This document shows, in pieces, positions 4,484 through 55,844 of a stretch of 64,000 nt of DNA. The translations under genes and the position numbers were made by a program. The DNA comes from Escherichia phage vB_EcoS_Uz-1, in sequence record OP312987.1; one strand, written 5' to 3'. The first letter of the stretch is position 1. Each line of letters opens with the position of its first letter. The notes under the pieces are model-generated. The model was not told the DNA's origin and made no database searches. It saw only the letters and a list, made by a program, of their open reading frames with translations.

Positions 4484-4485
4484 CT

Positions 4486-27091: not shown

Positions 27092-27119
27092 AAGCCCCTC
27101 TATTGAGGGGCTTCTATTT
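27092..27119. terminator. bidirectional intrinsic terminator between convergent late and early/middle units
   Basis: AAGCCCCTC-TATT-GAGGGGCTT with A-run on one side and T-run on the other, between the stop at 27085 (+) and the stop at 27120 (-). Confidence 0.55.
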
Positions 27120-27611
27120 TTACTGAGCTAACACCCAATCTTCTGCTAATACATCTGATTGAGATGGAACCCATGGCATAAACTGGTTATCAACGGTTTT
27201 AATACCCAGCCAATCCCGTTTCTCACAAACGGTATTTTCATGTTTATCCATGGCCCAATTTTCACCAGATACTAAGGTGATATACATTCCTTTTCCGTTC
27301 CAACCTTTACGGGTCATTCTAAAGCCTGATTTGAGAATCTCTACTGCATGACCAAAGGTACAACCTTTTTCTACGTCACGGTATGCAGCTTCGAATGTAG
27401 CTTTAGGTGACCAGCTAATATAGCCACGGAATTGGGGATGGTTGGACTTAGAGTCTGGATACTCGACTAAGTAGCCTTCTTCTAGCGGGTCTTCATCTGC
27501 TGGTACATCCCAACCACGAAGTTTGCAGTATGTTTCTTTGCTCATCGGGAAACCATTTACACACTTGGTTCCAATGTAGTTGGTGAAATGGACTTTAATT
27601 TCTTCTGACAT
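27120..27611 (-). CDS. DUF2829-like phage protein
   Basis: C-terminal KGWNGKGMYITL ... DW motif typical of DUF2829-type phage proteins, recalled from memory. Start re-derived at ATG 27611 with GAGG RBS. Confidence 0.45.
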   Translation of the reverse strand: MSEEIKVHFTNYIGTKCVNGFPMSKETYCKLRGWDVPADEDPLEEGYLVEYPDSKSNHPQFRGYISWSPKATFEAAYRDVEKGCTFGHAVEILKSGFRMTRKGWNGKGMYITLVSGENWAMDKHENTVCEKRDWLGIKTVDNQFMPWVPSQSDVLAEDWVLAQ

Positions 27612-27729
27612 AACTACCTCAAATGAGAAAGCCCTCACTAGGAGGGCTTGTTTTGTTTTGGCTTCATGAGCTTACTACTTTGTCGGGTAGTTCAGTACCT
27701 TTCGGTAAAAACTACCATACACCTTTGAA

Positions 27730-28110
27730 TCAAATGGTGCAACCACCACCATCACAGGTATTGTTTTCTGCAAAAGAAGCCAGAGCCTTAGCTGTTTCTT
27801 CTTTCTCATGCATTGCTTGACGTAGCAGGTAACCTTCTAATTCCCAAATCTTATTGAATGCAATTTCGTATGCATACTGACGGCCCTTCTGCTCATCATA
27901 GATGGCCGGGTCAACGCAGGCAGATACACCTTCAACTTTGAAGTCGTTTTCCAGGATGATAACACAATAGGTTACTAGACCCAGGTTAGCCAAATCGTCT
28001 GCCGGTAGTGCAGATGGATCAACGAATGCAGACTTCACTGCATCAGCACCATTAAAATAGTAAACGCTCTTAATCTTAGCTTCGATTGCTTCTTTACTTA
28101 CTGTTGCCAT
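27730..28110 (-). CDS. hypothetical protein
   Basis: Start re-derived at ATG 28110 (MATVSKEAI) with GAGG RBS; followed by a hairpin terminator. Confidence 0.45.
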   Translation of the reverse strand: MATVSKEAIEAKIKSVYYFNGADAVKSAFVDPSALPADDLANLGLVTYCVIILENDFKVEGVSACVDPAIYDEQKGRQYAYEIAFNKIWELEGYLLRQAMHEKEETAKALASFAENNTCDGGGCTI

Positions 28111-28423: not shown

Positions 28424-28500
28424 GGGTGTCCACTACTGGATTTGAACCAGTGACCTTCCGATTATTAGTCGGTTGCTTTCCCAGTCTAAGCTAAGTGGAC
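28424..28500 (-). tRNA. tRNA, canonical cloverleaf; anticodon reads AAU by hand fold (Ile-type), isotype unconfirmed
   Basis: Minus strand GTCCACT-TA-GCTT-AGACTGGGA-AAGC-A-ACCGA-CUAAUAA-UCGGA-AGGUC-ACUGG-UUCAAAU-CCAGU-AGUGGAC-A. Perfect 7-bp acceptor stem, D-arm, T-arm with TTCAAAT loop; anticodon stem has one mismatch. Confidence 0.6.
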
Positions 28501-28945
28501 ATAAATGAGTGAGTCATGCCAGGCTCTAACTGGCTCCTTCTTCGCAATCCTTACATACCCCTACATAATTATTGCGTTAAGCTTTTATTGTTTAAGTTTA
28601 AGTGAAGGCGTTCTTGCTGACTCATAATTGGGTGGGCGTTTGACGAATGACTAGTTCGTTACTACCCGTTTGCCATAAGTACCTGGCGACTTTGGTTTGA
28701 GGTGGGAGTCCGAGTCCTGTACAGCCTTACCGTTCACACATTGGCAGCATATCTAGAATTGCACTTCCGGCAACTGGATTTAACTGTTACACCTCAAATA
28801 TGGTAGGGGCGTCCAGAAGTCTCATCTGGTACTTACGCCGTCGTATGGTTACGACTTACCCCCATAATCTTACTAATTCAGAGTAGCACTGCTCCATGTT
28901 TGGCCTTTGAACTCCGGGATGGATTAGTGCAATGCTACTTTGAAT

Positions 28946-29069
28946 TGGTTACCAGTGAGGGATTCGAACCCCCGGTTGGAGTCTATAGCTTACCGCAGCA
29001 GCTCTCCAATCTAGCGGTGTCACACTTAGTCCAAACTTGAACATATCAAGCTATCTCGTGCAACTGATA
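28946..29069 (-). tRNA. tRNA-like element with encoded CCA; about 124 nt, non-canonical by manual folding
   Basis: T-arm GGGGG-TTCGAAT-CCCTC, then ACTGGTA-A-CCA. The only partner for the 3' acceptor strand (TATCAGT, one G-U) lies about 120 nt upstream. Confidence 0.3.
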
Positions 29070-29071
29070 AT

Positions 29072-29137
29072 TGGTTCCGGCGTCTGGACTCGAACCAGAA
29101 CACTTATGCCGTGCACGACACTAGTACCTACACCGGA
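29072..29137 (-). tRNA. tRNA-like element with encoded CCA; about 66 nt, lacks a foldable D/anticodon region
   Basis: Acceptor TCCGGTG pairs with CGCCGGA (one G-U). T-arm TCTGG-TTCGAGT-CCAGA, discriminator A and CCA, but only 29 nt between acceptor and T-arm. Confidence 0.3.
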
Positions 29138-29203
29138 ATTAATTGCCAGGGATTCCACCTGGTCCATCTGTTTTTATAGTCACTCAGATATCGTCTGGAC
29201 TGT

Positions 29204-29279
29204 AGGCATGGGTGGGAATCGAACCCACAAACCATTCAGCACTGTAGCCTCACGCTCTACCTATTTGAGCTATCACACA
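29204..29279 (-). tRNA. tRNA-like element, 76 nt, with canonical D-arm and T-arm but unpaired acceptor and anticodon stems in my fold
   Basis: D-arm GCTC-AAATAGGTA-GAGC and T-arm GTGGG-TTCGATT-CCCAC at canonical spacing; acceptor and anticodon stems do not pair by eye. Confidence 0.35.
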
Positions 29280-29572
29280 CCATTGATTAACTCCCCGTTT
29301 CTAATACACGGACGAGGACACTCCATGGTCGTTTGATAATCAGGACGACTCACTCCCGACTGACGCTTGGCTTATTAGGCTGCCATCAGAACAACATCAT
29401 CGTTTGCATTTATGTTATTGGTTCGTTTCTAAAAAACCGCATAATCGCTTACGAAAACTATCAAAGAGTACACTAAGCACAGGTAGCTACCCTGCCGTCT
29501 TCTCCACCTACACCGGCTACAGTGTAAACCTCCGCACGTTAGCTTAATGTACTCATTGATAGGATGTCAGTA

Positions 29573-29642
29573 GGTCGGGGGCTGGATTCGAACCAGCGAG
29601 AGAAGTAGCGACCATCTGCACATGCCTACGTGCTACCTCGAC
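29573..29642 (-). tRNA. tRNA-like element with acceptor, D-arm and T-arm but no clear anticodon stem
   Basis: GTCGAGG ... CCCCGAC acceptor (6 of 7 pairs), D-arm GCAC-GTAGGCAT-GTGC, T-arm GCTGG-TTCGAAT-CCAGC; only 20 nt between D-arm and T-arm. Confidence 0.35.
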
Positions 29643-30027
29643 CATTATAATAGGAGGGAGGGGACGAATCCTCCCTTTATATCCTATATTGCATGTAAGA
29701 TCTAACAGTTCGATGTTGTAGGTAGCTAGGCTATCCGACATTTAACCCAGCCATATAGGGCTTATGTGATTAGAATGCTCAACATTGAGCGGTTAGTTTG
29801 ATAAGGGATCTGAAGCCTTATCCTAAAGATACTAACCTTTGGGATATAGCCTAAGATTCAGAAATGGCCCCTATAGGGAGAGGCCATTGATTAACCCGAA
29901 TGTTGCTTTACATTTTCTGTGATAACCAATTCTTAAAATAGTCTACCTGACGGATGGGGGCCACCCCTAGCGTCAGTGCCATACGGCAAAGATTAAGTTA
30001 AGAAAGGTTATGATAGGAGTTCCTATC

Positions 30028-30228
30028 TCAAAGGATTCTAACAGAACCATTTACGATATTAACTACTCTTTTTAATGCTTCTACTTCACCCTCTCTATAC
30101 CAAGCATATGGTACTAAGATTTTGCAGCCTTCTGATTCAATGTGAAATGCTTTCTTTCCTTCAACGGGTTCTCCACCCATGAAAGAACTAACCTTTCCAT
30201 TGAGCCAGTGAATAGTAAATTTGTTCAT
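30028..30228 (-). CDS. small hypothetical protein
   Basis: Track ORF 30028..30327; the N-terminal 33 codons are poly-N/low-complexity, so the internal ATG at 30228 (MNKFTIHWLNGK) is preferred. Weak RBS. Confidence 0.3.
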   Translation of the reverse strand: MNKFTIHWLNGKVSSFMGGEPVEGKKAFHIESEGCKILVPYAWYREGEVEALKRVVNIVNGSVRIL

Positions 30229-31459: not shown

Positions 31460-32262
31460 TAACGCTTACCGAACAGTGATTTACCACCAGCAGGAGCAGT
31501 ACCCGTGCCAGCACCTGGTTTAGGTTTAGGAGGCAAGCCACCTTTGCCATTACCACCAGCAGAACCCTTGGTCTTATCACGGGTTTTGCCTTTGTTTTTC
31601 TCCAGCCATGCTGCATAGAATACAGCCAGTTCTGGGGTCAGTTCTTTTTCAGCCTTCTCTGCTTCCTGAGCCTCGACGACTGTGACCAGCAGTTCCGGAT
31701 GAAATACTTTCTGAATCTCGTTTACTTCACGAGTTTCACCGGAATCAACGTAACCGTTGTCACCCTTAACCTGCTTGGATTCCAGAACTTTTTCCAGAGC
31801 GAAGGTAACAGTCTGACCAACCAGGTCAACTGGAACCATGACAGATTTATTAACTTCTGCTTTGGCATCGAAGTCATAGACTTTAACAATCTTCTCTTCG
31901 AAGTCAGCTTCAGGCAGTTCCGTACCGGTAGCCATCAGCATCATGTCATTGATGACGGTATAACCTGGCAGGAAGTATTCTTTACCGTTCTTCTCGTAAG
32001 TAGGCTTATTACCTTTAGAATTACCAGAAGTGAAGTACACCTGTGCACGGAACTCACCAGCATGCATGCCAGCGGAACCTTTCAGGTTTTCAATGATTAA
32101 CTGCATCCAGTCTGCACCAGAGTCAGCTTTACCAACGTAAGCTACTTTGACCTCTCCGGTGTAGATATCAGTCTCTTTTGCACCGAATCCACCACCACCA
32201 AGGGTGTCTTTTACAGCTTCAACGTTTTTGGTTTTTTCTTTCAAGTTACTGAACAGGGACAT
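31459..32262 (-). CDS. putative single-stranded DNA-binding protein with G/K-rich C-terminal tail
   Basis: 267-aa ORF in the replication/recombination block, with a C-terminal KGSAGGNGKGGLPPKPKPGAGTGTAPAGGK tail. Size and position fit an N4 SSB-like protein; not alignment-verified. Confidence 0.35.
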   Translation of the reverse strand: MSLFSNLKEKTKNVEAVKDTLGGGGFGAKETDIYTGEVKVAYVGKADSGADWMQLIIENLKGSAGMHAGEFRAQVYFTSGNSKGNKPTYEKNGKEYFLPGYTVINDMMLMATGTELPEADFEEKIVKVYDFDAKAEVNKSVMVPVDLVGQTVTFALEKVLESKQVKGDNGYVDSGETREVNEIQKVFHPELLVTVVEAQEAEKAEKELTPELAVFYAAWLEKNKGKTRDKTKGSAGGNGKGGLPPKPKPGAGTGTAPAGGKSLFGKR

Positions 32263-32301
32263 AATATTTTCCTAATAAGTGATTAACAACCAGGCAAACG
32301 C

Positions 32302-33054
32302 TTAAGCGTAGTATTCAGCCAGATGGTCTAAGAGTTTCTGGGCATCGTTATCAATATAAGTCTCGGACTTATCGAACATACCCATTGGGGAACGAAGTCG
32401 TTTACCAACCGACTTCTTAGTTGGACGGGTCTGGAATACGTGCTTATACCCTAAGTCACGTTCTTCTTCCGTAATTTCAAGCATCTTGTTGCCATACTTC
32501 TCCAGTTCCTTAATGTCTACACGCTCTGCGTAAACCACTGTAGAGAAGTAAGCCTCAAGGCCATTGTTCTTCAGAGAGCCTTTCACTGGGATGAACGTTT
32601 TAATCACACCAGCAGCTTCGTCGAGTTCATCTTTGGCATGGGCAGTAATAATTACCGGCTTACCAAACTTAACAACTTTCTGTTGCAGCAGTATTTTAAA
32701 GAACTGTGCAAAGTCACCCCATGCTTTCTGGGTATTAGCAGATGGCAGTACATACTGGGATTCCAGCATATCCATCATGAAGGTAGCAGAGTCGATAATG
32801 ATACCGTCAACATCGTCTGCCATTTCTCCACCCGGGGATGCAACATCAAACGCTTCCCAAATCTGGTATGGGTCTTCAATGTTGTAGGTATTGAACTTGT
32901 TACGGAAAGGCAGACGTTTACCTGCTTCTGTATTCAGGTAGAGCCAGCGTTCCTGGTTCCTGATGTTACGCAGTGATGCTGATTTACCACTCGCTGAGAA
33001 TCCTGCAATCAGGATTAGCTGAGTGTTCATATCATTGGAGATTTCTTCGGACAT
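32302..33054 (-). CDS. RecA-like/Sak4-like P-loop ATPase
   Basis: Walker A GFSASGKS and Walker B IIIDSATF in a 250-aa protein. Confidence 0.5.
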   Translation of the reverse strand: MSEEISNDMNTQLILIAGFSASGKSASLRNIRNQERWLYLNTEAGKRLPFRNKFNTYNIEDPYQIWEAFDVASPGGEMADDVDGIIIDSATFMMDMLESQYVLPSANTQKAWGDFAQFFKILLQQKVVKFGKPVIITAHAKDELDEAAGVIKTFIPVKGSLKNNGLEAYFSTVVYAERVDIKELEKYGNKMLEITEEERDLGYKHVFQTRPTKKSVGKRLRSPMGMFDKSETYIDNDAQKLLDHLAEYYA

Positions 33055-33110
33055 TATTTTTCCTCGTTTAATTTAGGAGTCCTTCAAACCAAAGAAAGAC
33101 TCCTGTTTAC

Positions 33111-35263
33111 TTATTTGCCAGCGTAGCGTTTAGCCACGGTGACCATTACGGTTGCATTCAATTCATCATCAGGTAATGGATTAGCCAGCTTCTTATTGAA
33201 TGAGTGGACGGCTTGCTGTACTTGAGCAAAGTCCCAACCACTGTCAACCAATGCCAGTGCGTACTTAATCATTTGATTATTACGATTACCGGAGGCAATA
33301 CGACTAGCGAACCAACGCTCCAGATTATCCAACGACTGTACTTCCTTCATCTGGTTCTGGAACTGCTCGTTCTTACTAGTACGAGGAATAAAGTCACGCA
33401 CATCTAACAGATTTGCATCAAGGTTGTAATGATAAGAACCAGTCTCACAGGACATCCACTTCTTGGCTCGTTGGTTAGCTGACTCATCTGTTTCGAATGG
33501 TAGCCAAGCCATAACGTTATTCATGAACTCTTTGTATTCCTCTGTATCGAGGTGTAACTCATAGTTCATTGGAATAATCAGACGGAAGCGGTTCTCTTCA
33601 TCAGTATGACGCTTGGTGGTATAGGTCATGAACTTATATTCCTTCATCAGTTCATGGCACGTATGCAGTGGTACTCCACCATCACAGTCAATAACAATCA
33701 TGTTAAATCCTGGGATAACGTTCTCTTCAGAACGATGCCCATTCTTCATGTGATGGTTTACCCAGTGCATACCGGGAGCTTGGGTTAATACATGCAACTG
33801 GTCGAACGGTACGCGTTCACCAATGTAGTCATAAGCAAAGCTATCACTATATGCCACTATCATCTCATTGATGTCAGTCTCTTTAAGAGTTTCACCACGG
33901 AAGAACTCAATACCCTCATTGAAGGTCTTCTTAATGATGATGTGCTGTTTGTAACCCCATGCAGTAGCAAGAGTCATCATTTCATTACGAGCTGCATTAC
34001 CACTCTTATAGAATGGTAAAGACTCCAGCAAGTCAGCATGAGTTACTTCTTTACCTACGGAGGCAATGTACTTAGCCAGCTTCACATAGGCTTTTTCACG
34101 ATTAAGGATTGTCTGGAATGCTGCCCCAGATTCCTCTACAAGCAGAATTGCTTGTTTAAGGTGAGCCATCTCAATAAATGAACTCTGGTCAACAAATGCC
34201 AGTGCACCTGCCAGCTTAAGAGCTTTGAAGTAACGGTGGGAGATTTCAGCTTTACGAATCTCTTCGTGGTCAGCCATAGCTTCTGCTTGTTTCTCACAAT
34301 CAATTTTGTAAGTAATCAGGGCAATACCTACAGCATCTTCCACAATCATCTTAAAGCCAAACAAGTTTGGGTCAGCCAGACTATGGAAGTGGTTAGCCCA
34401 TTTACCAAGAGACTGTACGTTATCCTGTTTAATCAGGTTACGGTAGATTTCTTCTGGGGTTAGTGTTGCATGTGCTCGTTTGTCTAAATGCCCGATGGCA
34501 AACAAACAACGACGTGCATAACCTGTATCAAGGAAGTCATAGAACTGGTCCTCAGTCTGACCACCATCCAGCAGTTTACTCGGAGTACCAAACAACAGCA
34601 GGTTAGTTGGAGTCTTACCGTCCAGTTCTTCACCACGAACGCTTTCAGCAGTATTCTTGGTCAGCTTCTGCTTAACCTTACCCTGGTCATATAGCTCCAG
34701 AAACAGAGTTAATACATCAGAGTTAGCCAACAGATTTGAACCAATTTCATCAATTTGAAGATTGATTGAACCACATCCAGCCATTAACAGTTTATGACGT
34801 AGCTGTTTAACTGCTGGTGGAGTACCTGAGTCAAACGTAAACGGATATGCTCCGGCACGTTTATATTCTGCTTCAACTTTATCAAACTCTTCCTGCTGGT
34901 CAGTACCTTGACGTGCAGAGCGTTCGTTAGCAATCTTCCATAGACGGTCATTTGCAATGACGGGCATGGTGTCTTCCATAAAACGTTTACGGAAGCCAGT
35001 CATGAACCCGTCTTCGATGATATTACTGAGTGACCTTTACCGAAACCAGATGTAGCCAACGCTATAGCGTAGATGTTTACCGGCAGGTCACCACGGTCTT
35101 TAGTTACGATGGTTGCACCCATGCAGGATGCCATTTTAGCCAAGAAGTAGGCTACTTCGACACGGAAGAATCCCCGGTCATTGTTCTGGGTTTTATTGCA
35201 GAGCACATCTACGATTTCTTCAATCGCTGGATGGTGCACTACTCCGGTAAGGTCAATACTCAT
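33111..35263 (-). CDS. primase-like replication protein; apparent frameshift near 35028-35041
   Basis: Track ORFs 33111..35003 (630 aa) and 35000..35320, with real start at ATG 35263 overlapping the upstream stop as ATGA. The frames join at GGTAAAGGTCACTC (coding strand), consistent with a 1-nt deletion. Primase assignment is tentative (acidic DxD-type motif VIDCDGG). Confidence 0.4.
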
Positions 35264-36240
35264 GATGGAAAATATCTCTCTCTTTGTTTGCAAATGGTCG
35301 CGACAGGGCAGTATAAACAACGCTTAACCTGCCCCTCCACGACCTTGATAGCACCCTTGCCACCTTTTTCAGCCATGAAGATACGGGCAGATGCCATATC
35401 GTCAAAGTTTTTGGTACTTCTGGCTCCAGGCACATCTACCTTAGAAGCATCAGAGAAGTATTTGAATTGTGGCTCTGTTCGCCACAACTCCTCGTCAGTA
35501 CATTCAGGAATTTCCTCTTCAGGAGCATCCCAGTACTTTTCGATGAGGTGAATCTTCTCTTCCACCCAACGTTCAGTCTTCTCGACAGATAGCAGCGGAA
35601 TATCCTTATGCATAATACGATTAGCAGGATAGTTCGGGTTGCTATTAGCCATGTGTTTCATGAAGTCAGTGAAGATGTAGTTAATACGGATTACATCCTC
35701 CGTAATGATGTCGTTATGAATCCAACGGTACAAGCTGCCTTGCATCTTGTGTTCATCATCACGGGAACCGGCAACCCAGGAATAGGTTGAGGTAGACTTA
35801 AAGTCTTGCAACAGACCTTCCGTTACGATGTCGAACTTACCACCGATAGTCCAACCCTTAACTACCCTGGTTCCACGTTGTTCAATGTAGATTGGGATAA
35901 GGTCTGGGTTAGCATCAAAGTCTGCTTTGGTTGGGTTAATGACTACTGCATCAATGACTCGCTGAGGATAGCCTAGTTTCTTCAATGCAGTCTTATGCCC
36001 CAGCTTCCAGGCTTTCTCAATAGAATCATGCAAGCCAGTACCCATTGATGTGGAGACGAAATCCATAACATCAATGGATTGTTCACTGAGATCTACGCGA
36101 TGCTTCATGACGATTTGCTTAATGGGTTTAAGCAATGTAGTAGCAGACAAGTACTTAGGATTGTCTACATAATCATACTCGTCATGTAATAGCCATACAG
36201 CTAGTGCAAGACTAACGTCGTGTTTGTTGGTAAGTTTCAT
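35260..36240 (-). CDS. PD-(D/E)xK nuclease with C-terminal cysteine cluster (Cas4/RecB-like)
   Basis: GKFDIV ... LQDFK motif plus C-terminal CLYCPVATIC and an upstream Cys, compatible with a Cas4-like Fe-S nuclease. Its first 21 codons are duplicated upstream of the adjacent HNH gene. Confidence 0.5.
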   Translation of the reverse strand: MKLTNKHDVSLALAVWLLHDEYDYVDNPKYLSATTLLKPIKQIVMKHRVDLSEQSIDVMDFVSTSMGTGLHDSIEKAWKLGHKTALKKLGYPQRVIDAVVINPTKADFDANPDLIPIYIEQRGTRVVKGWTIGGKFDIVTEGLLQDFKSTSTYSWVAGSRDDEHKMQGSLYRWIHNDIITEDVIRINYIFTDFMKHMANSNPNYPANRIMHKDIPLLSVEKTERWVEEKIHLIEKYWDAPEEEIPECTDEELWRTEPQFKYFSDASKVDVPGARSTKNFDDMASARIFMAEKGGKGAIKVVEGQVKRCLYCPVATICKQRERYFPS

Positions 36241-36734
36241 AACAGTCCCAATTGCTTATTAGTTTTAGCAAACTCACCATAATGAGTTATAGCAGCTTCA
36301 TCATAGAGAACAGCAGCTTCTCTTGGGTCATCTGTAAAACCTAATGTAATTGGTTTACTGTTAACCCAAATAGTTGCTCTGTATTTACCTAAATTCTTTG
36401 AAAAGGATACCCCCTTAAATCCAGATGTGTTTGTTTTAGATAAAACAGCACTCTGGTTATTCTGCTTGTGGGTCGCTTCTCTGAGGTTATCTATCCAGTT
36501 GTGATGGCGAATATTGTCCTTATGGTCAATCCTATCCGTAGGCCATACACCGTGCACATAGAACCATGCAAGGATATGCCCATAGTACAACACACTATCT
36601 ACACGGAGTTGAACGTAACCACTCTTCATTAGGTAACCAGATACCTTTCCGGTATTCCTACGAGTAAAAATCCCGGAAATAGGGTCATAACTAACAAGCT
36701 GTAAAAGCCTGTCATGGGCAATCCTCTGTTTCAT
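36237..36734 (-). CDS. HNH homing endonuclease with AP2 DNA-binding domain (intact)
   Basis: HNH_3-type core (HGVWPTDRIDHKDNIRHHNWIDNL) and AP2-like C-terminus (SGFKGVSFSKNLGKYRATIW ... AAVLYDEAA). 165 aa, free-standing between replication genes. Confidence 0.7.
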   Translation of the reverse strand: MKQRIAHDRLLQLVSYDPISGIFTRRNTGKVSGYLMKSGYVQLRVDSVLYYGHILAWFYVHGVWPTDRIDHKDNIRHHNWIDNLREATHKQNNQSAVLSKTNTSGFKGVSFSKNLGKYRATIWVNSKPITLGFTDDPREAAVLYDEAAITHYGEFAKTNKQLGLL

Positions 36735-36740
36735 AATTAG

Positions 36741-36803
36741 TTACTCGTCATGCAATAGCCATACAGCCAGGGCCAGTGATACATCATGGTTGTTGGTTAT
36801 CTT
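36741..36803 (-). repeat. recoded duplicate of the first 21 codons of the nuclease gene, ending in a stop, directly upstream of the HNH gene
   Basis: 36741..36803 encodes MKITNNHDVSLALAVWLLHDE then stop; 36177..36239 encodes MKLTNKHDVSLALAVWLLHDE as the true gene start. About 76 percent nucleotide identity but 19 of 21 amino acids identical. Confidence 0.6.
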
Positions 36804-36805
36804 CA

Positions 36806-37282
36806 TTAGTAAGTAATCCTGTATCTGTGAACCCAGTTCCACTTAATTTCACTTAGCTGATTGAAGTTATACGAGTAAATTTCATCTCGTTCATCTTTAT
36901 AAACAATCTCAATGAATGAAAATTCTTTAGTGAAGTGAGGTTTACCATTGTTTGTATGGTGCCAATAACTACCAACGGTATTTACATTCGTAGCAGGATC
37001 CGGAAATAACTCACTAGCTAACTTCTCTTTAGCGAGAATACGATTAGCGTAATGAACCAGCTTCTCAGCATCATACACCGAAGAGTTTCCTGGTTTACCA
37101 TTACCCATACGGGCAGCAGCATTTCGCCATAGAGCCTTAAAGGCACAACCTTCATCGAAGGTCATGCCCAGTGCCTGGATAATATCCTCACACTCTGCTT
37201 GGTATGGCTCTTGCTCTTTCCGTTGGGGGTTCTTAACTGGTACTACATACCAGTTATTCAATCCACCGGAGAGCTTAGTCAT
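36806..37282 (-). CDS. hypothetical protein
   Basis: 158-aa ORF between the DNA polymerase region and the HNH insertion. Confidence 0.45.
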   Translation of the reverse strand: MTKLSGGLNNWYVVPVKNPQRKEQEPYQAECEDIIQALGMTFDEGCAFKALWRNAAARMGNGKPGNSSVYDAEKLVHYANRILAKEKLASELFPDPATNVNTVGSYWHHTNNGKPHFTKEFSFIEIVYKDERDEIYSYNFNQLSEIKWNWVHRYRITY

Positions 37283-37587
37283 TATTCCCCCTTGGGAATC
37301 ATGTTTGCCTGGAACTCTGGTTCAGACATCAGACCCAGGTTGTTAATGGACAGATAAACAATGTCTTTCAAATCAACCGAAGTGTCGAAACGCTGGTCCA
37401 GACTAATTTTAAGAGAGTGATTGGCACGGGCCAAATCTTTATAGGTCACATGAGGCTCGTCAGTGAGCAGCATTGTGTTCATAGTAAGCAGGGAGCCATC
37501 ATCAGCTTTGGGAAGCTGGAAGATTACCTGTGCTGCTACCATCCAATGATATTTTCTGACAACGGTTTCTTTAGTACTTTTAGTCAT
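37282..37587 (-). CDS. hypothetical protein
   Basis: 101-aa ORF directly downstream of the DNA polymerase gene. Confidence 0.4.
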   Translation of the reverse strand: MTKSTKETVVRKYHWMVAAQVIFQLPKADDGSLLTMNTMLLTDEPHVTYKDLARANHSLKISLDQRFDTSVDLKDIVYLSINNLGLMSEPEFQANMIPKGE

Positions 37588-40050
37588 GCGAATGCCTTTT
37601 GAATTATTTGATGAACTTCATCTGGGGTAGCGTGATTTGGAATTTCAATCTCGTTAGCCCACGTTGGATAAAACAAGGATAGTTCCCCACCCAAACCAAC
37701 TTCTGGATGAGCAATATCAGGATGGTCTTGCCAGTTAACGGCTTCAACCAAGTGCTTGTTCGTATACTGTAAGGTATCCATGTTGTCACGGATCATGAAG
37801 TATTGGGCATCATGAATGTGAATACAAGGACGGATATCTAACCTGAACTCACTGGTTCTGACTTTACGCATAAACTCTGAGCCAGCACGGTTATTAAGTA
37901 GACACCAGCTTTGACCTAATGCATTACCAGCAGTTCTGCCTTCAGCTTCTGCTTCATACGGAGTCTTACATGTCCCACGTAATACCTGAGCCAGTAAAGG
38001 AGTACGCACTCTTAAACCAAATGCAGCAGTTACATAACCAGTCTTAGCAGCTTCGTCTAGCTTAGCCTGAACCCACAAATCACTAACTACATAGAGATCG
38101 TGATAACGTTTCTCCGTAGTTTTAGCCTTCTCTTCGGAGAAGCCACAGTTTTCATTAAGCCCATGTAAGTACCACCATAGGTAAGCAGGAAGGTTGGAGC
38201 CTTCGAGTCACTACGTAATGATTTGTACTTATGCTGAATGGAATTAATGGATTCTACTGTGTCTTCTATGTCTGGCATCTGCTCACCAAAATAAGCATAT
38301 GCACGGAGACTGTGACCATCATAGCCATCGGTATATACCTTAAGCTTCTGCGGGTCTTTAGTAGTTAAAGCTGAGATACGGTCTTCAAGGCTTGCAAAGT
38401 CCAGTCCACAAAATATCCAACCTGGTGGTGCTTCGAAGCATTTCTTAATCTTCTTGGCGTATTTGGAACCACTGGGGATGGTCTGTAGATTAGGCTCGGA
38501 CGCTGAGAGACGTCCTGATACTGTGCCTCCAAATTGAGGTTACCGAACAGGTAGTGCCATCCATCTGGTCCAGGTTGTGCATTACGGAAAGCTGGGATGA
38601 ATGAAGTGATGATCTTATCCACCAGCTTATAGTCGATAAGTGCATTGAGCAGTTCCTTAACATCTTCACTCTGCGTATGTGTACGCAGTGCTTTAATAGT
38701 GTCACCGTCAGTAGCAGGTTGCTTGCTCTTAGTAAGACCAAGAACCGGTAAGCCGATGTAGTCAAATAACAATTTCTGTAATTGTGGACCAGAGTTAGGA
38801 TTAAACTCTATGTCACAATCAGCCAACGTTACCTGCTTCTTCTTAAGCTTGGCATTCTTATCGTCTACCCATTCCTGACGAAGCATCAGGGTGAAGTTCT
38901 TCATGAGCTTAGACTCACGAATAGTTTTCAGAGCCTGGTTCCTGTCAGTTTCCATTTCTTCAGCTACTTGGTTAACGGTTTCCATATTCATGGGCATACC
39001 GGTTAACTGCATCTGAATAATGTCTTCGCAGGCTGGTTTAAAGATGTTGTTATAAACATCTAGTTGGTTATCAGCTACCAGGGTATCCCAGTGTTTCTCG
39101 TAGGTGTACCAGGTACACAAACCATCAATAAGGTTGTATCGTAACAGTTGCTCATTAGGAATGAGACGAATGTCTTTAATATCATCCTGAGCATAGTTAC
39201 CAGCATACTCCTGAGCCTGCTCTTTTAGACTAAGGTGATTACCAGCACAACTGTTAGTAGCTAAATAAGTAATTAATTTAGTACAGTCCCAGTTACGCAG
39301 CATGATGTCCATGCCATGCAGTAAGCCTCCAGTATCAATCAGGTTATCCATGAATAACTGATAAATAAGTATGTACACATCATAACTAATGTTGTGATAC
39401 ATCTGCCGTTGGGTGTACTTAATGAAGAACTCACGGAGAAGATTTCGAACAATATCATTACGATTGATTCTCCCATAAGGTGCTTCAGTAGCTCCCCTAA
39501 TTGGCTCGTAATCCACATTAAAGGCTATGCCCTGTGTCTTACTCCAACAGAACGTAATTGTTCCTATACCTGCGTTATAGTGCTTTAAACCGAATGCCTC
39601 GATGTCTATAGCCAGAGGCTTATTCATCTCAAGCAACTGGTCTAGCCAGGCTTTAATCTTTTCTGGAGTATCTGGATAGGCTTCAAACTCAATGATTCCC
39701 TGACCTGGTTCAGCATACTGCCCACGTATGTGGTTTAGTAATGCATCCATACCCTGAGCAATTTTGGCTCTCACTACAGGTGGGTCATAAAAGACCTGTC
39801 TGTAACTAGGCGTATAGATAACTTTCTGTTTACCCCATACTGAATCACAAACATAGCCGAGATTAGCCTCTGCTTTAGCCTCTTTAGTCAGTATTTTGAA
39901 GTAATCAGAATCGGTGCAGATAATGTACTGGGTCTCTGCATCATCCAGTACTTGCTGCAATTCCTGCTTTATGAACTCCTTAATCTCTCTTGCTGGGGTC
40001 TTCTTCTTGCCCGGAGCAGAGTGAAGTTCAATAAAGATGAAGTCTTCCAT
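37584..40050 (-). CDS. DNA polymerase, family A, with 3'-5' exonuclease domain; at least two apparent frameshifts
   Basis: Fragments 38365..40050, 38087..38278 and 37584..38078. Exo motif LAIDIEAF; FNPNSGPQLQKLLF; motif A (GLDFASLEDRISA) readable only in a shifted frame after a break near 38531-38546; motif B (KAPTFLLTYGG); motif C (IHDAQYF). Second break at an A-run (ATGAAAACTGTGG) near 38143-38155. Confidence 0.7.
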
Positions 40051-42897: not shown

Positions 42898-44946
42898 TTA
42901 CTTAACGTGCTTTGACAGCTTAGTAGCCAATTTGCTCTCTTCTTCAGTCAGACCCATTGCAGCTGAAGACTTCTTAGCTGCACGCTTATAGTCTTGTAGG
43001 GCATGACCTTTCTGATAGTCAGAGATAGGACTATCTTCAGGATGTACGCAGATTATCATGGCATGTTTACCAGTAATGGCAGGCTTATATTTAGTGGGTA
43101 GAACGGTCTTAGCTTGCTTCACTGGTTTTGGTTTGCCGATGGGTTTAGCTGTGTAAGTTGTACGTACATCAGCAATCTTAGCCACTACATCGGAACCAAC
43201 TCCTAAAGCAGCCCATGGCTTACGGGCCTTGCCTCGCATTTCCACAAGCAAATCAGCAGCAGCTAATTTATCTTCTGGGGTTGTTGCATTGAGGAACTCT
43301 TTGACCAGTTCCTGGATTTGTTCTTTCACAGTAGGAGCCTTCTTAATAACGGGTTTAAGGTCAGTAGCCTTCACTGGTTCAGAAGCTACAGTTTCATTCA
43401 GTGACTCTTCCATATTCAGTGCTTCTTTATTAGCAACTGTACGGAATTGTTCTACAGAACCAGATGTGAGATTAGTATATTTGAGGTTAGTACCACGATG
43501 TCCACCAACCATAACAAGTGTGGTAGGTGAACTATGGTTCCCAACGATGGCATCATTAAGCAACTTCTTACCTACTTCTGTCTTAGACAGATAGATACCG
43601 TTGTTAACGTTGCAACGTTCCTCTTCCGGCAGTTCAGCAATAATGTGATATGCAGATACACGCATCTTATTAGTGCTGTACTGAGGAACAGCAAATACAT
43701 CTTCTGGTGCTACTTTACCAAGGATAGTTACGTTACCACCGAAGCTACGAATGTAGCTCATGGATGCTACATGCAGACCATTAGAACAGTCCTGGCGACG
43801 GTCAGGGTCTACCAGGTCTTCGCGTACCTGCACTTTACATCCTACCCATTGACGAATGTTGCCTGAGTGACAATCAACGAATACACGTTTACCATTCTCT
43901 AGACTTCTATACTTCAGACGTTTCAGGAACAGGATTGAACCATCATCAGCAATAGGTAGCTCAGCAGTTTCCATGAACTTCATCAGGTCTTCAACTGAGT
44001 GTAGACGGTCTTTAATTACTGGAGCCAGACGCTCAAGGAACTTAGTAAAGCCCTTGTAGTCTTTCAGTTGGGCAGACTGACGCAAGTGACGTTGCAGGTT
44101 CTCAACTCCAGGGATAACCCCATCGTTGGTAACAGCAACAACCACTTCATCTTCCTTCACATCAGTGTGGAAGTTAGCGTCATCAGTACTAATAGCACCC
44201 AATGCAGCCAGTTTCTCAGAAGCAGCAGCCAGCTTATCCTGATTCGTAACTTTAACCTCTTCTACATAAGGCAGTGGAGTTTCATCGCGACTGGTAAATA
44301 CAATGTGTACTCCTTTGATATGTTTGGCTTGTTTAGCAAACTCACTCATTTCATCATCGGATACTGCACGAATTGCAATAGGCCATTCTTGCTTAAGAAT
44401 GCTGTCAGTATGCTTATAACTCCAACACAGTACATCATTAATAAAACGAACCAGTGCAGGATGGTTATGGTCCTTGTCCCAACCAGTAACCCACATCAGA
44501 TTGTCACGTTTATCGTAACAACCGTCTGCTACTGTTACTTCTGGTTCATTAGCCTGGACAGCCAGGAAGGTATCCATAGCTCTAGACACCAGCGTCTTAG
44601 TGGGATTTCCCAGCTTAATATCTGAGACGATTCGGGCTGGTTGAGTACTTGTACCATCTTCGAAGAACTCTTTGAGTTTAGCCTTAGCTACCTTGAAGAA
44701 ACGGACGAATCCGTTAGTGTTCTTCTCTGCTTCCAGATATTCAGTACGCAGGTTTACTTCTGGTGCAATGTTTACTTCTATCTGGTCTTTGGTAGTTCCC
44801 AGACCTTTGGTTTGTGCTTCAGATACAATACGAGCAACCCGTGGGTCGCTCTGAGGATATACAATCGTGGAGCCATCAGGCTTCCACAGTGTAAGGTTAC
44901 GACTGTCAACTGCCAGTGCGATGATAGAAATCAGTTCGATTTTCAT
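42898..44946 (-). CDS. large hypothetical protein immediately downstream of rIIA-like gene (rIIB-like by position only)
   Basis: 682-aa ORF following the rIIA-like gene on the same strand. No motif recognised; the rIIB label is positional. Confidence 0.3.
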   Translation of the reverse strand: MKIELISIIALAVDSRNLTLWKPDGSTIVYPQSDPRVARIVSEAQTKGLGTTKDQIEVNIAPEVNLRTEYLEAEKNTNGFVRFFKVAKAKLKEFFEDGTSTQPARIVSDIKLGNPTKTLVSRAMDTFLAVQANEPEVTVADGCYDKRDNLMWVTGWDKDHNHPALVRFINDVLCWSYKHTDSILKQEWPIAIRAVSDDEMSEFAKQAKHIKGVHIVFTSRDETPLPYVEEVKVTNQDKLAAASEKLAALGAISTDDANFHTDVKEDEVVVAVTNDGVIPGVENLQRHLRQSAQLKDYKGFTKFLERLAPVIKDRLHSVEDLMKFMETAELPIADDGSILFLKRLKYRSLENGKRVFVDCHSGNIRQWVGCKVQVREDLVDPDRRQDCSNGLHVASMSYIRSFGGNVTILGKVAPEDVFAVPQYSTNKMRVSAYHIIAELPEEERCNVNNGIYLSKTEVGKKLLNDAIVGNHSSPTTLVMVGGHRGTNLKYTNLTSGSVEQFRTVANKEALNMEESLNETVASEPVKATDLKPVIKKAPTVKEQIQELVKEFLNATTPEDKLAAADLLVEMRGKARKPWAALGVGSDVVAKIADVRTTYTAKPIGKPKPVKQAKTVLPTKYKPAITGKHAMIICVHPEDSPISDYQKGHALQDYKRAAKKSSAAMGLTEEESKLATKLSKHVK

Positions 44947-44950
44947 CAGA

Positions 44951-47516
44951 TTAGTTACCTTTCAGTTTATTTAGACGATTACGGTAGAGGGACTTAAACC
45001 CAGGAATATCCTCTGGATTCTTCTTAAGGTGTTTGACCAAACTACCTAAGTCCAGCGTCTGTAGGATGTCATTTTTATTCCAGCTATAACTGAATAATTC
45101 TTTGTAATCATTAAGTATTTTAAAGTACTTATGATTACGCGGATTAGTCATTATTGCATATGGCTCTAAGTCATCCACTGACTTAATACAACCCATTTCA
45201 ACAAGTTTTTCTTTGTTGTCGTGTGGTCGATTCCGTAGAAAGTCATATGCCCATTCATATTCTGGTTTAAAAATCAGATTCTGTAATGGTTTGAAGGTTA
45301 GACCAGTATGTCTAGGATTTCCCAGTATTCCCTGTCATCCAGTCCTACGTATTCCAGAATACCAATACGGTGTTCAGTAACATATTTCTTGAAGCCTTTA
45401 CTGGTAATAACTGGCATCAGCTCCATAAAGCGAACATCATCAATGTGGATAGCACCTCTCCGTTTGGCCTTGTTAGCTTCGATTTGATTACGGCAGACAA
45501 CAGTCTCTGCTCTCATCTCATCAGATAACTCATACCATTTCCACATGGTTCCAATTCGAGCAGTTACTGGGCTACCTGAACCAACCTGATTGGCTAGTAC
45601 GTAGTACTTAGGTTGCTCTACTTCAACGAAACCAGACTTATCATGGCGACTTGGGTCTGCAAATTCCTTCTGAATATAAGGCTTTGGTTCCCAATCCCCA
45701 TTTTTATTCCGTATTTGGGTAGCACCAAGAACTGCATTCAATGAAATCAGAGAATTAGTTTTACCTCCTGCCTTGGTTTTATTGGCAGCGATTGTCTTAG
45801 ACCGTTTCTCAGCAGCTATCTTAGCTTTCTCTCTACGGAAGTTAGTTGGTTTGTCCCACTCATTATATTGAGTAAGGTCGATTACCCGATAACCCATAGC
45901 AGTGAACTTAGCCACAGCTTCTTCTGCTGCACCCTTCTTAGGTCCAACGACGTGAACAAAAGCTGTACGCTCCAGGTCACCTCGATCGTACTCAGGGAAG
46001 TACGAGAAAGAGTCTGCACAGTCAGACAAACGTCGGGTAACTACAACGTTTTTGGTAGTGAATATGCCAATACTTTGGTGGGAGTTATTGTATATCCTAA
46101 AGTAGTCAGTAAGTTTACCTTTTACCAAGTCAACACGGTTACCTTGATTCATTATGTAACCAGACCACTTAATACCAGAGGTTTTCAAAGCAGCCAGCTG
46201 AGGTAAGTGCAGATGGCGATATACTAATTCCGAGAATGGGGAGTATGTACTTTCTTCACGAGTATCCTTAAGAGCACGCATAGCCTTACCATACAGTTTC
46301 TTAAGACCTGCGTATTCAGGACGAGCTAATAATGCCTTATTGGATAAATTACGCCAGTGCTTGATGTAATGCTTACGTTGCTTAGCCCACAAACTAGAGG
46401 ACATATAGCGTTGAACAGTTCTGTCTGTAACAGCACCCAGGAATGATGGATACTCCCAGAAGCGAGTAGAGGATTTAGAAGCATATTCTTCAACCTGCTT
46501 AATGGCTTCAGGAATCTTAGCCTTAATCTCTTTCTCCATACGGTCTACTAAATCTACACATAGAGTAGTAATACCATCGTCGGTTAACTTCTGGTTAGAC
46601 AGCGTTTCTCGACTAGGAGCAATAGCTAAAGTGTCTGGTGCAGCCTGAACTACTAGATTAGAAGCACCAATAATATTCATGAAGTTGAGGATAAGGCCTA
46701 CAGCTTCTTCACTAGCTGGGCTGGATACAATTGGTACATTACATTACCGTAGCGAACGTATATGTTACTGCTACCCATATAGCCTTGATACCATCTATCA
46801 GACATATCATATGAACCAGGTTCAAATGGCATGCCTAGTGTATCCAGTAGAGTGTAGTCGCCTTGTTGAATACTATTACTCTCGTCTGTTCTAATGAGTT
46901 TGGGAGTACTTAGCTCAGCTTTAATTTCACCGTTAAACACAATTGATTTGATGTAATGAATAAAGGTATTTAAATCATGTTTGCCTAACTGGAATTTAAC
47001 TTCCAGACCAGATTCCTCAGTAGGAATACCAGTAATAATAGGAACAATACCAGGCTTACCATCATTCTCAATTGCAGCCTTAGCTACGTTATATACAGAC
47101 ATCTTCCCTTGGTTCCATGATGTAACCTGGAAGCTATCTGTATAAGCGAATGGGGATTTACATCCCAGACCAAAGCCACCAGTAACACTACTGTTGGACT
47201 TCTTGGTAGATGCACCATAGACACCATAAATGGAGCCAATGAGTTCATCTTGGATACCGTTACCGAAGTCACGGAAGGTAATAAAGTTGTCAGTATCAAT
47301 GGTAATACGGATAGGAGTATCAGTCTTACCTGCTTCAATATGGGCATCCCAACTGTTACAGATAGTTTCACGGACTACTGCCAGAGTAGGGTTGTTATAC
47401 AAGGAAGTACTTAATACATGAAAGAATGCCGGGTCATCAGAGATGCCAAAGGCGATTGCTTCTTTGCCACCCAGTGTCGCTGAAGTGGCTGATTGATTGG
47501 TATCTGCAACTAACAT
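44951..47516 (-). CDS. rIIA-like protein with GHKL-type ATPase N-terminal domain; two apparent frameshifts
   Basis: Fragments 46698..47516, 45298..46680 and 44951..45196, about 855 aa combined. GHKL-like motifs ETICNSWDA, RDFGNGI, GGFGLG. Adjacent frames are open and protein-like across both junctions; the second is at an A3 run (TGGGAAATCC, coding strand) near 45315-45324. Confidence 0.55.
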
Positions 47517-47543
47517 TTATTTACTCTCCAGTTTAAATGTTGC

Positions 47544-47735
47544 TTACATTAGAACTTGTTTACACTTATCAAAAATAGCTTTACGAAGTTCAGCTTCTTC
47601 CCGTGGTTCATCATTAGGATGGTGACCTACAGGACTATTTTGAAAAGCATTCATTAGGAATAAGACCTGATACTCGGTTAAACCATTAATCTGAATGCTA
47701 TACGTTTTCTCTGAGGCGATATTTACATTAGCCAT
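47544..47735 (-). CDS. small hypothetical protein
   Basis: Track ORF 47544..47792; start preferred at ATG 47735 (MANVNIASEK), overlapping the upstream gene end by 8 nt. Confidence 0.35.
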   Translation of the reverse strand: MANVNIASEKTYSIQINGLTEYQVLFLMNAFQNSPVGHHPNDEPREEAELRKAIFDKCKQVLM

Positions 47736-48102
47736 TGCGTTTACCTGCCATTGCTTGTAATACAAACACAGCCATATCTGATGCCATGTCATCTGTTATA
47801 TCGTTGACCGTTCCATATGGTAGTGGGCCGTTCTCTTCCCAGTTATCTAACGTGTTTTGTACTTCAGCTAAACCAGCCTGAATCATTTCCTTGCTTGGTT
47901 CCAGCCATAACTTACGTTCCTCTGCTAGTGCAGCGATGCATATGCATAGAGAGGCAATGTTAGCTGGACAAGCAGCAATATCACCAGTTACTGCAATCTC
48001 ACTGAGTGGGACAGCCTTACCGGTTTTACTATGAATTACTTCAGGGTTAATCATGAATTTGCTCCAGGTTATGGGCAGGAATAGGGAAGCATGGATAGTC
48101 AC
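47728..48102 (-). CDS. hypothetical protein
   Basis: 124-aa ORF. Confidence 0.4.
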   Translation of the reverse strand: MTIHASLFLPITWSKFMINPEVIHSKTGKAVPLSEIAVTGDIAACPANIASLCICIAALAEERKLWLEPSKEMIQAGLAEVQNTLDNWEENGPLPYGTVNDITDDMASDMAVFVLQAMAGKRNG

Positions 48103-48259
48103 CGGTAGGGTCCAGTGTTACTGACACATGCAGTGTATTTGTCATTTGGGTTAGCATCTGAGCAGCATTGAAATCATCCTGGATACAGGCATATACAATG
48201 TCGCCCTTCTCACCCTCACACATTACGGGTGTGTCTTTGATACGGTATTTAGCAGGCAT
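48047..48259 (-). CDS. hypothetical protein
   Basis: 70-aa ORF immediately downstream of a terminator hairpin. Confidence 0.35.
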   Translation of the reverse strand: MPAKYRIKDTPVMCEGEKGDIVYACIQDDFNAAQMLTQMTNTLHVSVTLDPTGDYPCFPIPAHNLEQIHD

Positions 48260-48286
48260 ATGCCCTCCTGAAAGAGTTAATTGAAA

Positions 48287-48314
48287 CCAAAAAAGACCTC
48301 CCGGAGGAGGTCTT
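48287..48314 (-). terminator. intrinsic terminator (minus strand)
   Basis: AAGACCTCC-CGGA-GGAGGTCTT followed on the minus strand by TTTTTTGG. Confidence 0.5.
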
Positions 48315-48318
48315 AGGT

Positions 48319-48534
48319 TTACTTACGATTTTGTTCTACAAATCGTATCATTTGTTTTTTCACTTCTTCTTGCTCACGAATTGCTTCGTAGTCACGAGCA
48401 AAGTAGTAAACACACCATAAACCAATCTCGCTTACAAAGAACAGAATACTAGCTCGAATGAACTGCATATCTGTTTCTACGACAAAGGCAACTTTGTATG
48501 CGTAGGTCAGTGTTAGTAGGGTACTAATTAGCAT
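48319..48534 (-). CDS. small membrane protein
   Basis: 71-aa ORF with two hydrophobic helices. Confidence 0.4.
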   Translation of the reverse strand: MLISTLLTLTYAYKVAFVVETDMQFIRASILFFVSEIGLWCVYYFARDYEAIREQEEVKKQMIRFVEQNRK

Positions 48535-48553
48535 TGCGTATAGAGCTAGTTTT

Positions 48554-53129: not shown

Positions 53130-53136
53130 GTTGTGA

Positions 53137-54188: not shown

Positions 54189-54222
54189 TTACTTACTCTC
54201 CTAAAGCTAATGGAATTACTGA

Positions 54223-55386: not shown

Positions 55387-55446
55387 TTCCTGGCTCCAGA
55401 TGTAGAAAACCCAGTCAATGCTGGGGTTTATCTATCAGTTTATACT

Positions 55447-55707: not shown

Positions 55708-55844
55708 AGTTACCTTCTTAGTTAGTAAGTTGATTTACATATTCATATAACAGACAAACAATAGTCAAAAAAGACTCCCTTCAATAGGGAGGTCAAACTT
55801 GAGGGTTTCATTTCAGGGTTTATAACCCCAAACAAAGAATACCC

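What the first reader, a model, noticed from the sequence alone, without database searches (positions are those of the whole stretch)
33111..35263. Primase-like gene with N-terminal 87 codons in a different frame
The ORF starting at ATG 35263 (ATGA-coupled to the upstream nuclease gene) ends at 35000 exactly where the 630-aa primase-like ORF begins. The 630-aa frame is open for 13 codons upstream of its ATG, and the frames can be joined at GGTAAAGGTCACTC by one inserted base. This fits the same single-base-deletion pattern seen elsewhere.
Basis: seen in the sequence. Interest (0 to 1): 0.35.

Follow-up and report, generated by a model that had tools for sequence, protein, structure and literature searches.

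The report
Primase gene split by sequencing error
The phage's DNA primase gene looks broken in two only because one A is missing from an AAA run, an error that this genome record shares base for base with the older Bp4 record, so it is an artefact and not biology.

Summary
On the minus strand an 87-codon ORF (35263..35000) and a 630-codon ORF (35003..33111) overlap in ATGA and lie in different frames. Together they are one gene, the N4 gp43-family DNA primase. About 60 related Gamaleyavirus genomes and 5,326 database homologs carry it as a single gene of about 717 codons.

The break is one missing A: GTAATATC at 35026-35019, where relatives have GTAAATATC. Adding it back gives a 717-aa protein that aligns without gaps, at 98% identity, to the nearest intact homolog.

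The missing base is an artefact. The window is Escherichia phage vB_EcoS_Uz-1. It aligns without a single gap to positions 8584-72583 of the phage Bp4 record, which has the same length (72,583 nt), despite 6% natural-looking substitutions. Phage PD38 differs from Bp4 by 4 substitutions in 41.8 kb, yet it has an extra base at 30 places. All 30 are shorter in the window, and 26 of the 30 lie in homopolymers. They also break the DNA polymerase, rIIA, gp51, gp53, gp25 and gp24 genes.

Interest is low. In passing: distant N4-like phages carry group I introns 21 nt upstream of this site.

The parts
33111..35263 (-). Whole N4 gp43-family DNA primase gene. It is 2153 nt as recorded and 2154 nt / 717 codons once the missing A is restored.
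   Evidence: The repaired translation matches PHROG 2135 over positions 2-711 of 713 in one stretch. It aligns to P0047 over 717/717 residues without gaps at 98% identity. Relatives annotate one 2154-nt CDS.
35000..35263 (-). 5' fragment ORF of 87 codons. Codons 1-80 are authentic primase sequence. Codons 81-87 (ISSKTGS) are out-of-frame read-through, followed by TGA.
   Evidence: PHROG 2135 positions 2-79.
35023..35024 (-). Site of the lesion: AA where relatives have AAA (TT versus TTT on the + strand), at codons V80/N81.
   Evidence: Alignment A1. Gap at window 35023 against PD38. All listed records except the two Bp4 records are one base longer across this site.
33111..35003 (-). 3' fragment ORF of 630 codons, equal to residues 88-717 of the real protein. 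Its ATG is an internal Met codon.
   Evidence: Residue 88 is M in only 17 of 39 aligned homologs and L/I/Q in the rest.
35027..35050 (-). Codons 72-79, SGFGKGHS. This is an invariant SGxGKGxS motif resembling a P-loop, immediately before the break.
   Evidence: S72, G73, G75, K76, G77 and S79 are invariant in 39 homologs of 71-89% identity.
33513..33752 (-). Primase catalytic-region match, residues 505-584, including IVIDCDGG.
   Evidence: PHROG 9765 'DNA primase' and PHROG 256/695 matches. This is the well-predicted part of the model, residues about 460-628, pLDDT mostly 76-91.
33147..33305 (-). PriCT_1 (primase C-terminal 1) domain, residues 654-706.
   Evidence: Pfam PF08708, 29.8 bits against a cut-off of 21.1.
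35260..36240 (-). Upstream gp42-homolog exonuclease gene. Its TGA overlaps the primase ATG (ATGA).
   Evidence: The same 4-nt overlap is annotated in VTCCBPA_322, G7C and PD38.
32302..33054 (-). Downstream gp44-homolog (Sak4-like / AAA_24 ATPase) gene, which completes the conserved gene order.

Best explanation
The two ORFs are one gene: the DNA primase of a G7C-like (Gamaleyavirus, N4-like) phage, homologous to N4 gp43. It has a conserved N-terminal region carrying an SGxGKGxS motif and a C-terminal primase region with a PriCT_1 domain.

The split comes from one A missing from an AAA run. That missing base is a sequence-record artefact, not a property of the phage.

The window comes from Escherichia phage vB_EcoS_Uz-1. 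Its record has the length and coordinate frame of the older Bp4 record. The most likely history (inferred) is that Uz-1 reads were turned into a substitution-only consensus on the Bp4 reference. That would carry over every homopolymer under-call of Bp4 and would leave reference sequence wherever no reads mapped. The real phage is inferred to encode an intact 717-aa primase translated in one frame.
For: Shown:
- One missing A relative to VTCCBPA_322 and G7C. The repaired protein aligns 717/717 without gaps to P0047 and end to end to PHROG 2135.
- In the phage collection, every listed record spanning the site is 1 nt longer except the two Bp4 records.
- The deletion allele has 0 matches in IMG/VR, the metagenome contigs and the GTDB genome contigs. 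The intact allele has 11 IMG/VR matches.
- All 64,000 nt align ungapped to Bp4 8584-72583, with 5.95% mismatches and no indel.
- Exact protein look-up names the source as vB_EcoS_Uz-1 on a 72,583-nt contig, the same length as Bp4.
- PD38 differs from Bp4 by 4 substitutions in 41.8 kb. It has an extra base at 30 places (32 nt), and all 30 are shorter in the window. 26 of 30 lie in runs of 3 or more, where only 12.8% of bases lie.
- These deletions fall in the primase, DNA polymerase (3 sites), rIIA (2), gp51 (4), gp53, gp25 (3) and gp24 homologs.
- The substitutions against Bp4 are natural. In the 630-codon ORF 104 changed codons are synonymous and 14 are not, and 212 of 325 differing sites carry the VTCCBPA_322 allele.
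- A natural pair, ECBP1 and PD38 at 97% identity, has 5 indels in both directions in 25 kb.
- Blocks of 100% identity to Bp4 include the tailspike (1-2960) and the optional HNH gene (36191-37027).
Against: - No reads and no paper describing the Uz-1 or Bp4 assemblies could be consulted, so the reference-guided history is inferred.
- Not all 100%-identity blocks are variable regions. The rIIA block 44684-47096 is 91-93% conserved among relatives, so missing read coverage or recombination must be assumed there.
- An AAA run is short for a classic homopolymer error.
- The ATGA overlap, and a stable hairpin just downstream (-29.2 kcal/mol, z = -3.1), are features a real coupled or recoded gene pair could also show.
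Confidence: 0.93

Rival explanations
1. The deletion is a real mutation of this phage lineage. The primase would then be made as two polypeptides (87 aa and 630 aa), with the second translated by termination-reinitiation at the ATGA overlap.
For: The ATGA overlap of stop and start is there. Two records, Uz-1 and Bp4, carry the same allele.
Against: - The two records are not independent, because they share coordinates without a single gap.
- PD38, almost identical to Bp4 in substitutions, is intact.
- The break falls one residue after an invariant motif.
- Met88 is not conserved (17 of 39), and no Shine-Dalgarno-like sequence precedes it (CGAAGACGGGTTC).
- The same record would also need a DNA polymerase in three pieces and a split rIIA.
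- No other assembly has this allele.
Confidence: 0.03
2. The gene is recoded. A programmed -1 ribosomal frameshift or transcriptional slippage within the 11-codon overlap would restore a full-length protein, perhaps helped by the downstream hairpin.
For: A hairpin at 34959-35012 folds at -29.2 kcal/mol, z = -3.1, and 0 of 200 shuffles fold as well. The required shift is -1.
Against: - There is no X XXY YYZ slippery heptamer between TAA 35039 and TGA 35000, and no A or T run longer than 3.
- All relatives encode the protein in a single frame.
- The hairpin is not kept in distant homologs, and its pairs are broken without compensation in L007, L008 and L010.
- There is no Rfam match.
Confidence: 0.01
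3. The small upstream ORF is exon 1 of an intron-split primase gene, or a separate gene, as in some distant N4-like phages.
For: Distant relatives have 74-76-aa ORFs upstream of 649-655-aa primase ORFs. Group I introns lie between them (RF00028, 91.9 and 60.9 bits).
Against: In the window the ORFs overlap by 4 nt with no intervening sequence. There is no Rfam match at E <= 1 in 32000-37500. The intron site is between codons 73 and 74, which is 21 nt upstream of the window's break.
Confidence: 0.01

Closest known systems
Coliphage N4 gp43 (dns) / Schitoviridae core 'DNA primase', as in G7C gp43 (YP_004782173.1)
   Same: Same gene order: gp42 exonuclease, gp43, gp44 Sak4-like ATPase, gp45 SSB. 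Same length once repaired (717 aa). End-to-end match to PHROG 2135, and a PriCT_1 domain. It is listed among the 17 conserved proteins of the family (PMC7650795).
   Different: Only the recorded 1-nt deletion differs. Otherwise it is 98% identical to the cluster representative P0047.
Escherichia phage Bp4 orf40 + orf39 (YP_009113222.1 + YP_009113221.1), annotated as two 'DNA primase' CDS
   Same: The identical missing A, the identical 630-aa ORF boundaries when shifted by 8583 nt, and the same record length.
   Different: Bp4 differs from the window by about 6% substitutions. Its annotators began the small ORF at an internal ATG, giving 47 aa.
Homopolymer under-calling in assemblies, propagated by reference-guided consensus building
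   Same: All events go in one direction, 26 of 30 lie in runs of 3 or more, they sit in essential genes, and they are absent from a near-identical genome.
   Different: The sequencing platform and pipeline are unknown. Four events lie in runs of 1-2 bases.
Group I intron / homing-endonuclease-split phage replication genes
   Same: Distant N4-like phages really do split this gene near the same motif.
   Different: The window has no intron, and its break is a frameshift 21 nt downstream of the intron site.

Membership tests
N4 gp43-family DNA primase (PHROG 2135) | Collinear full-length match to the family profile | tested here: met
   The repaired protein covers residues 3-715 against profile positions 2-711 of 713, 1240.9 bits. 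The fragments cover positions 2-79 and 87-711.
N4 gp43-family DNA primase (PHROG 2135) | PriCT_1 C-terminal primase domain | tested here: met
   PF08708, 29.8 bits against a cut-off of 21.1, residues 654-706.
N4 gp43-family DNA primase (PHROG 2135) | Position between the gp42 exonuclease and gp44 AAA_24/Sak4-like genes | tested here: met
N4 gp43-family DNA primase (PHROG 2135) | Primase activity, or AEP fold of the catalytic region | tested here: inconclusive
   The model has mean pLDDT 61 and is good only for residues about 460-628 and 650-717. No Foldseek PDB match reaches E <= 0.001, and human PrimPol appears only at E = 2. There are no PDB sequence hits. The activity itself cannot be tested with these tools.
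Sequencing/assembly indel artefact | Lesion absent from a near-identical independent genome | tested here: met
   PD38 has 4 substitutions against Bp4 in 41.8 kb and an intact gene.
Sequencing/assembly indel artefact | Many like lesions, one direction, enriched in homopolymers, hitting essential genes | tested here: met
   30 of 30 events are shorter in the window. 26 of 30 lie in runs of 3 or more, against 12.8% of bases. DNA polymerase is hit at 3 sites, rIIA at 2, and so on.
Sequencing/assembly indel artefact | Read-level evidence of the true base count | not testable with these tools
   No reads are available.
Programmed -1 ribosomal frameshift | Slippery heptamer X XXY YYZ in the frame overlap | tested here: not met
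   None is present in GGT AAA GGT CAC TCA GTA ATA TCA TCG AAG ACG GGT TCA TGA.
Programmed -1 ribosomal frameshift | Two-frame arrangement conserved in relatives | tested here: not met
   All relatives use a single frame.
Programmed -1 ribosomal frameshift | Conserved downstream stimulatory structure | tested here: not met
   A hairpin is present (z = -3.1), but its pairs break without compensation and it is absent in distant homologs.
Group I intron-split gene | Intervening sequence matching RF00028 between the exons | tested here: not met
   The ORFs overlap by 4 nt, and there is no Rfam match at E <= 1 in 32000-37500.

The most novel reading that the evidence does not exclude
The one-base deletion is real in the Bp4/Uz-1 lineage, and the phage still makes a working primase. 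It would do so either as two chains, through reinitiation at the ATGA overlap, or by a non-canonical -1 shift helped by the hairpin at 34959-35012.
Probability: 0.02. Interest if true: 0.4.

Novelty: not a real feature. Interest (0 to 1): 0.05.

Why it matters
Its value is for curation. The vB_EcoS_Uz-1 record (OP312987.1, as cited in PMC11927229) and the Bp4 records (KJ135004.2 / NC_024142.2, a RefSeq entry and species exemplar) carry about 30 false frameshifts that fragment core replication and structural genes. The Uz-1 record probably also contains Bp4 reference sequence where its own differs, for example in the tailspike and the HNH gene. Pan-genome, core-gene and host-range analyses that use these records will be misled. 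Nothing here bears on primase biology.

Tried and rejected
- Programmed frameshift or slippage: no slippery site, and relatives use a single frame.
- Intron or separate small gene: the short homologous ORFs are exon 1 of intron-split genes with different boundaries, and the window has no intron.
- Independent occurrence of the allele: pattern scans of three collections found none. The exact 630-aa product is on no contig of the assembly index. Only Uz-1 and Bp4 carry it in the protein collection.
- Naming the N-terminal domain by structure failed. The AlphaFold model has pLDDT below 50 over residues 55-101 and 134-262. Foldseek gives only weak MCM hits, E >= 0.04. PDB sequence and profile searches and NCBIfam were empty.
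- The Bp4 paper could not be read, and no paper describes the Uz-1 assembly.
- The idea that every 100%-identity block is a hypervariable region does not hold for the rIIA block.

Full report
**What is in the sequence.** On the minus strand an ORF starts at ATG 35263. This ATG overlaps the TGA of the upstream 326-aa gene (35260..36240) as ATGA. The ORF runs 87 codons to TGA 35002-35000. A 630-codon ORF starts at ATG 35003, again in an ATGA overlap, and ends at 33111. The second frame is -1 relative to the first.

**What the gene is.** The window is a G7C-like (Gamaleyavirus, Schitoviridae) phage genome. The region corresponds to the gene called 'DNA primase' or 'DNS protein', the homolog of N4 gp43. 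It lies between the gp42 exonuclease and gp44 Sak4-like ATPase genes.
- VTCCBPA_322, G7C, PBM-2, PD38 and ECBP1 each annotate it as one 2154-nt CDS.
- A protein search with the 630-aa piece found 5,326 homologs. Nearly all of the best 120 are 714-720 aa long.
- Against PHROG 2135 ('DNA primase', 713 positions) the 87-aa piece covers positions 2-79 and the 630-aa piece covers 87-711.
- Pfam finds PriCT_1 at residues 654-706 of the repaired protein.
- DNA primase (gp43) is one of the 17 proteins conserved across the family (PMC7650795).

**The lesion.** Alignment A1 shows GTAATATC in the window where VTCCBPA_322 and G7C have GTAAATATC. One A of an AAA run is missing, leaving AA at 35024-35023, at codons V80/N81. 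Restoring it gives a 717-aa protein. That protein aligns to the cluster representative P0047 over 717/717 residues, without gaps, at 98% identity. The break comes one residue after an SGxGKGxS motif (residues 72-79) that is invariant in 39 homologs of 71-89% identity. The ATG of the 630-aa ORF is an ordinary internal Met, present in only 17 of those 39 homologs.

**Who else has it.** Among the records of the phage collection that span the site, all listed ones are one base longer, except the two Bp4 records (KJ135004.2 and NC_024142.2). Bp4 annotates two 'DNA primase' CDS there. A degenerate pattern for the deletion allele has no match in IMG/VR, the JGI metagenome contigs or the GTDB genome contigs. 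The intact allele matches 11 IMG/VR contigs.

**Why it is an artefact.**
- *The window sits in Bp4's coordinate frame.* The whole 64,000-nt window aligns without a single gap to Bp4 8584-72583, which is the end of that record. There are 3,811 mismatches (5.95%). An exact-sequence look-up names the source as Escherichia phage vB_EcoS_Uz-1 (UWJ04330.1, a 630-aa 'DNA primase') on a 72,583-nt contig, exactly Bp4's record length. PMC11927229 gives the accession as OP312987.1.
- *The substitutions are natural.* They are mostly at third codon positions and synonymous. In the 630-codon ORF 104 changed codons are synonymous and 14 are not. In the 4.7-kb region aligned to VTCCBPA_322, 212 of the 325 sites that differ from Bp4 carry the VTCCBPA_322 allele.
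- *A near-identical genome lacks the deletions.* PD38 differs from Bp4 by only 4 substitutions in 41.8 kb. Yet it has an extra base at 30 places (32 nt). All 30 are shorter in the window and in Bp4. 26 of the 30 lie in runs of 3 or more identical bases, where only 12.8% of bases lie.
- *The deletions hit many core genes.* They break the primase, DNA polymerase (3 sites), rIIA (2), gp51 (4), gp53, gp25 (3) and gp24 homologs.
- *Real deletions would not fit the phylogeny.* They would have to be shared by two genomes 6% apart, and be missing from a genome 0.01% from one of them.
- *Natural pairs do carry indels.* ECBP1 and PD38, at 97% identity, show 5 indels in both directions in 25 kb.
- *Some stretches are pure Bp4 sequence.* Eleven blocks of 523-2,960 nt are 100% identical to Bp4. 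They include the tailspike (1-2960) and the optional HNH gene region (36191-37027), where VTCCBPA_322 has a different gene.

The simplest history is a substitution-only consensus of Uz-1 reads built on the Bp4 reference. That would inherit Bp4's homopolymer under-calls and fall back to reference sequence where nothing mapped. This history is inferred. No reads or methods could be consulted. One identical block (rIIA, 44684-47096) is not a variable region.

**Rivals.**
- *Real mutation with two coupled products.* This is disfavoured by everything above, by the lack of a Shine-Dalgarno-like sequence before ATG 35003, and by the position of the break next to an invariant motif.
- *Programmed -1 frameshift or transcriptional slippage.* There is no slippery heptamer and no long A/T run in the 11-codon overlap. 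Relatives use a single frame. A hairpin at 34959-35012 (-29.2 kcal/mol, z = -3.1) is not conserved in distant homologs, and its pairs break without compensation in several Gamaleyavirus contigs.
- *Intron-split or separate small gene.* A search with the 87-aa piece returned many 73-82-aa proteins ending ...ATSGL(K/N/Q)*. On long contigs, 300-950 bp follows these ORFs, and then a 649-655-aa primase ORF. The intervening DNA is a group I intron (RF00028, 91.9 bits in L021 and 60.9 bits in L018). In L018-L020 it carries a NUMOD4/HNH_3 endonuclease gene. The intron lies between codons G73 and F74 (L021 intron 353-668), which is 21 nt upstream of the window's break. The window has no intervening sequence and no Rfam match, so this does not apply to it.

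**Limits.** The N-terminal domain could not be named.
- The AlphaFold model of P0047 is poor there: mean pLDDT is 61, and below 50 over residues 55-101 and 134-262.
- Foldseek gives no match at E <= 0.001.
- PDB sequence and profile searches and NCBIfam gave nothing useful.

**Verdict.** The feature is a record artefact in a well-known gene. Interest is low, apart from the warning about the Uz-1 and Bp4 records.

Noticed in passing
window 1-64000 (whole window): The window aligns ungapped to Bp4 (NC_024142.2) 8584-72583, with 5.95% substitutions and no indel. Exact protein look-up names the source as Escherichia phage vB_EcoS_Uz-1, on a contig of the same 72,583-nt length as Bp4. This suggests a reference-templated consensus.
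   Followed up: yes
window 12299, 14975, 15067, 15173, 15427, 16312, 27671, 29163, 29751, 29758, 29956, 30069, 38149, 38524, 40077, 45303, 46733, 48289, 48550, 50499, 51971, 52132, 52140, 53045, 53634, 55410, 55767, 55775, 56726: There are 29 further 1-2-nt deletions relative to PD38. All are shorter in the window and most lie in homopolymers. They fragment the gp53, gp51, DNA polymerase (37584-38078 and 38365-40050), rIIA (three pieces, 44951-47516), gp25 and gp24 homologs.
   Followed up: yes
window 1-2960, 27115-27735, 28882-29667, 36191-37027, 44684-47096, 47533-48559, 52617-53139, 53920-55796, 56872-57423, 61027-61938, 62021-62799: These blocks are 100% identical to Bp4 within an otherwise 6%-diverged genome. 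Several cover variable genes (the tailspike, and the HNH endonuclease at 36237-36734), as expected if reference sequence filled unmapped stretches. The rIIA block is not a variable region, so recombination or low coverage remains possible there.
   Followed up: partly
L021 353-668; L018 about 4208-5177 (also L019, L020): Distant N4-like metagenomic phages carry a group I intron (RF00028, 91.9 and 60.9 bits) in the primase gene, between codons G73 and F74 of the invariant SGFGKGHS motif. In L018-L020 the intron carries a NUMOD4/HNH_3 homing endonuclease gene. Many 73-76-aa 'proteins' in the databases are its exon 1. A full-text search for 'group I intron', 'N4-like' and 'primase' returned 7 papers; judged from titles and abstracts only, none is about such an intron.
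   Followed up: partly
window 34959-35012 (- strand): A stable RNA hairpin (-29.2 kcal/mol, z = -3.1) spans the artefactual ATGA junction inside the primase coding sequence. Its pairs are broken without compensation in L007, L008 and L010, and it is absent in L018 and L021, so it is probably fortuitous.
   Followed up: partly
L004 438-953 (PBM-2); also U1G, PGN829.1, PBM-3, UE-M6: In PBM-2 a free-standing HNH homing endonuclease gene (about 513 bp) is inserted between the exonuclease and primase genes. U1G, PGN829.1, PBM-3 and UE-M6 show a similar extra segment and an HNH annotation in the blast table, but its position was not checked. The window lacks this insert but has an HNH gene upstream of the exonuclease (36237-36734), where VTCCBPA_322 has a 'nucleotide kinase' gene.
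   Followed up: no
L005 29011-29084 and 29788-29863 (Bp4), corresponding to window about 28427-29280: The tRNA region between the gp48 and gp46 homologs is annotated oddly in Bp4 ('tRNA-Xle', and 'tRNA-Cys(aca)'; ECBP1 calls the second one tRNA-Thr / pseudo-ACA). Five of the homopolymer deletions (29163-30069) lie just downstream of these tRNA genes, in the same poorly annotated stretch. The tRNA calls were not checked.
   Followed up: no
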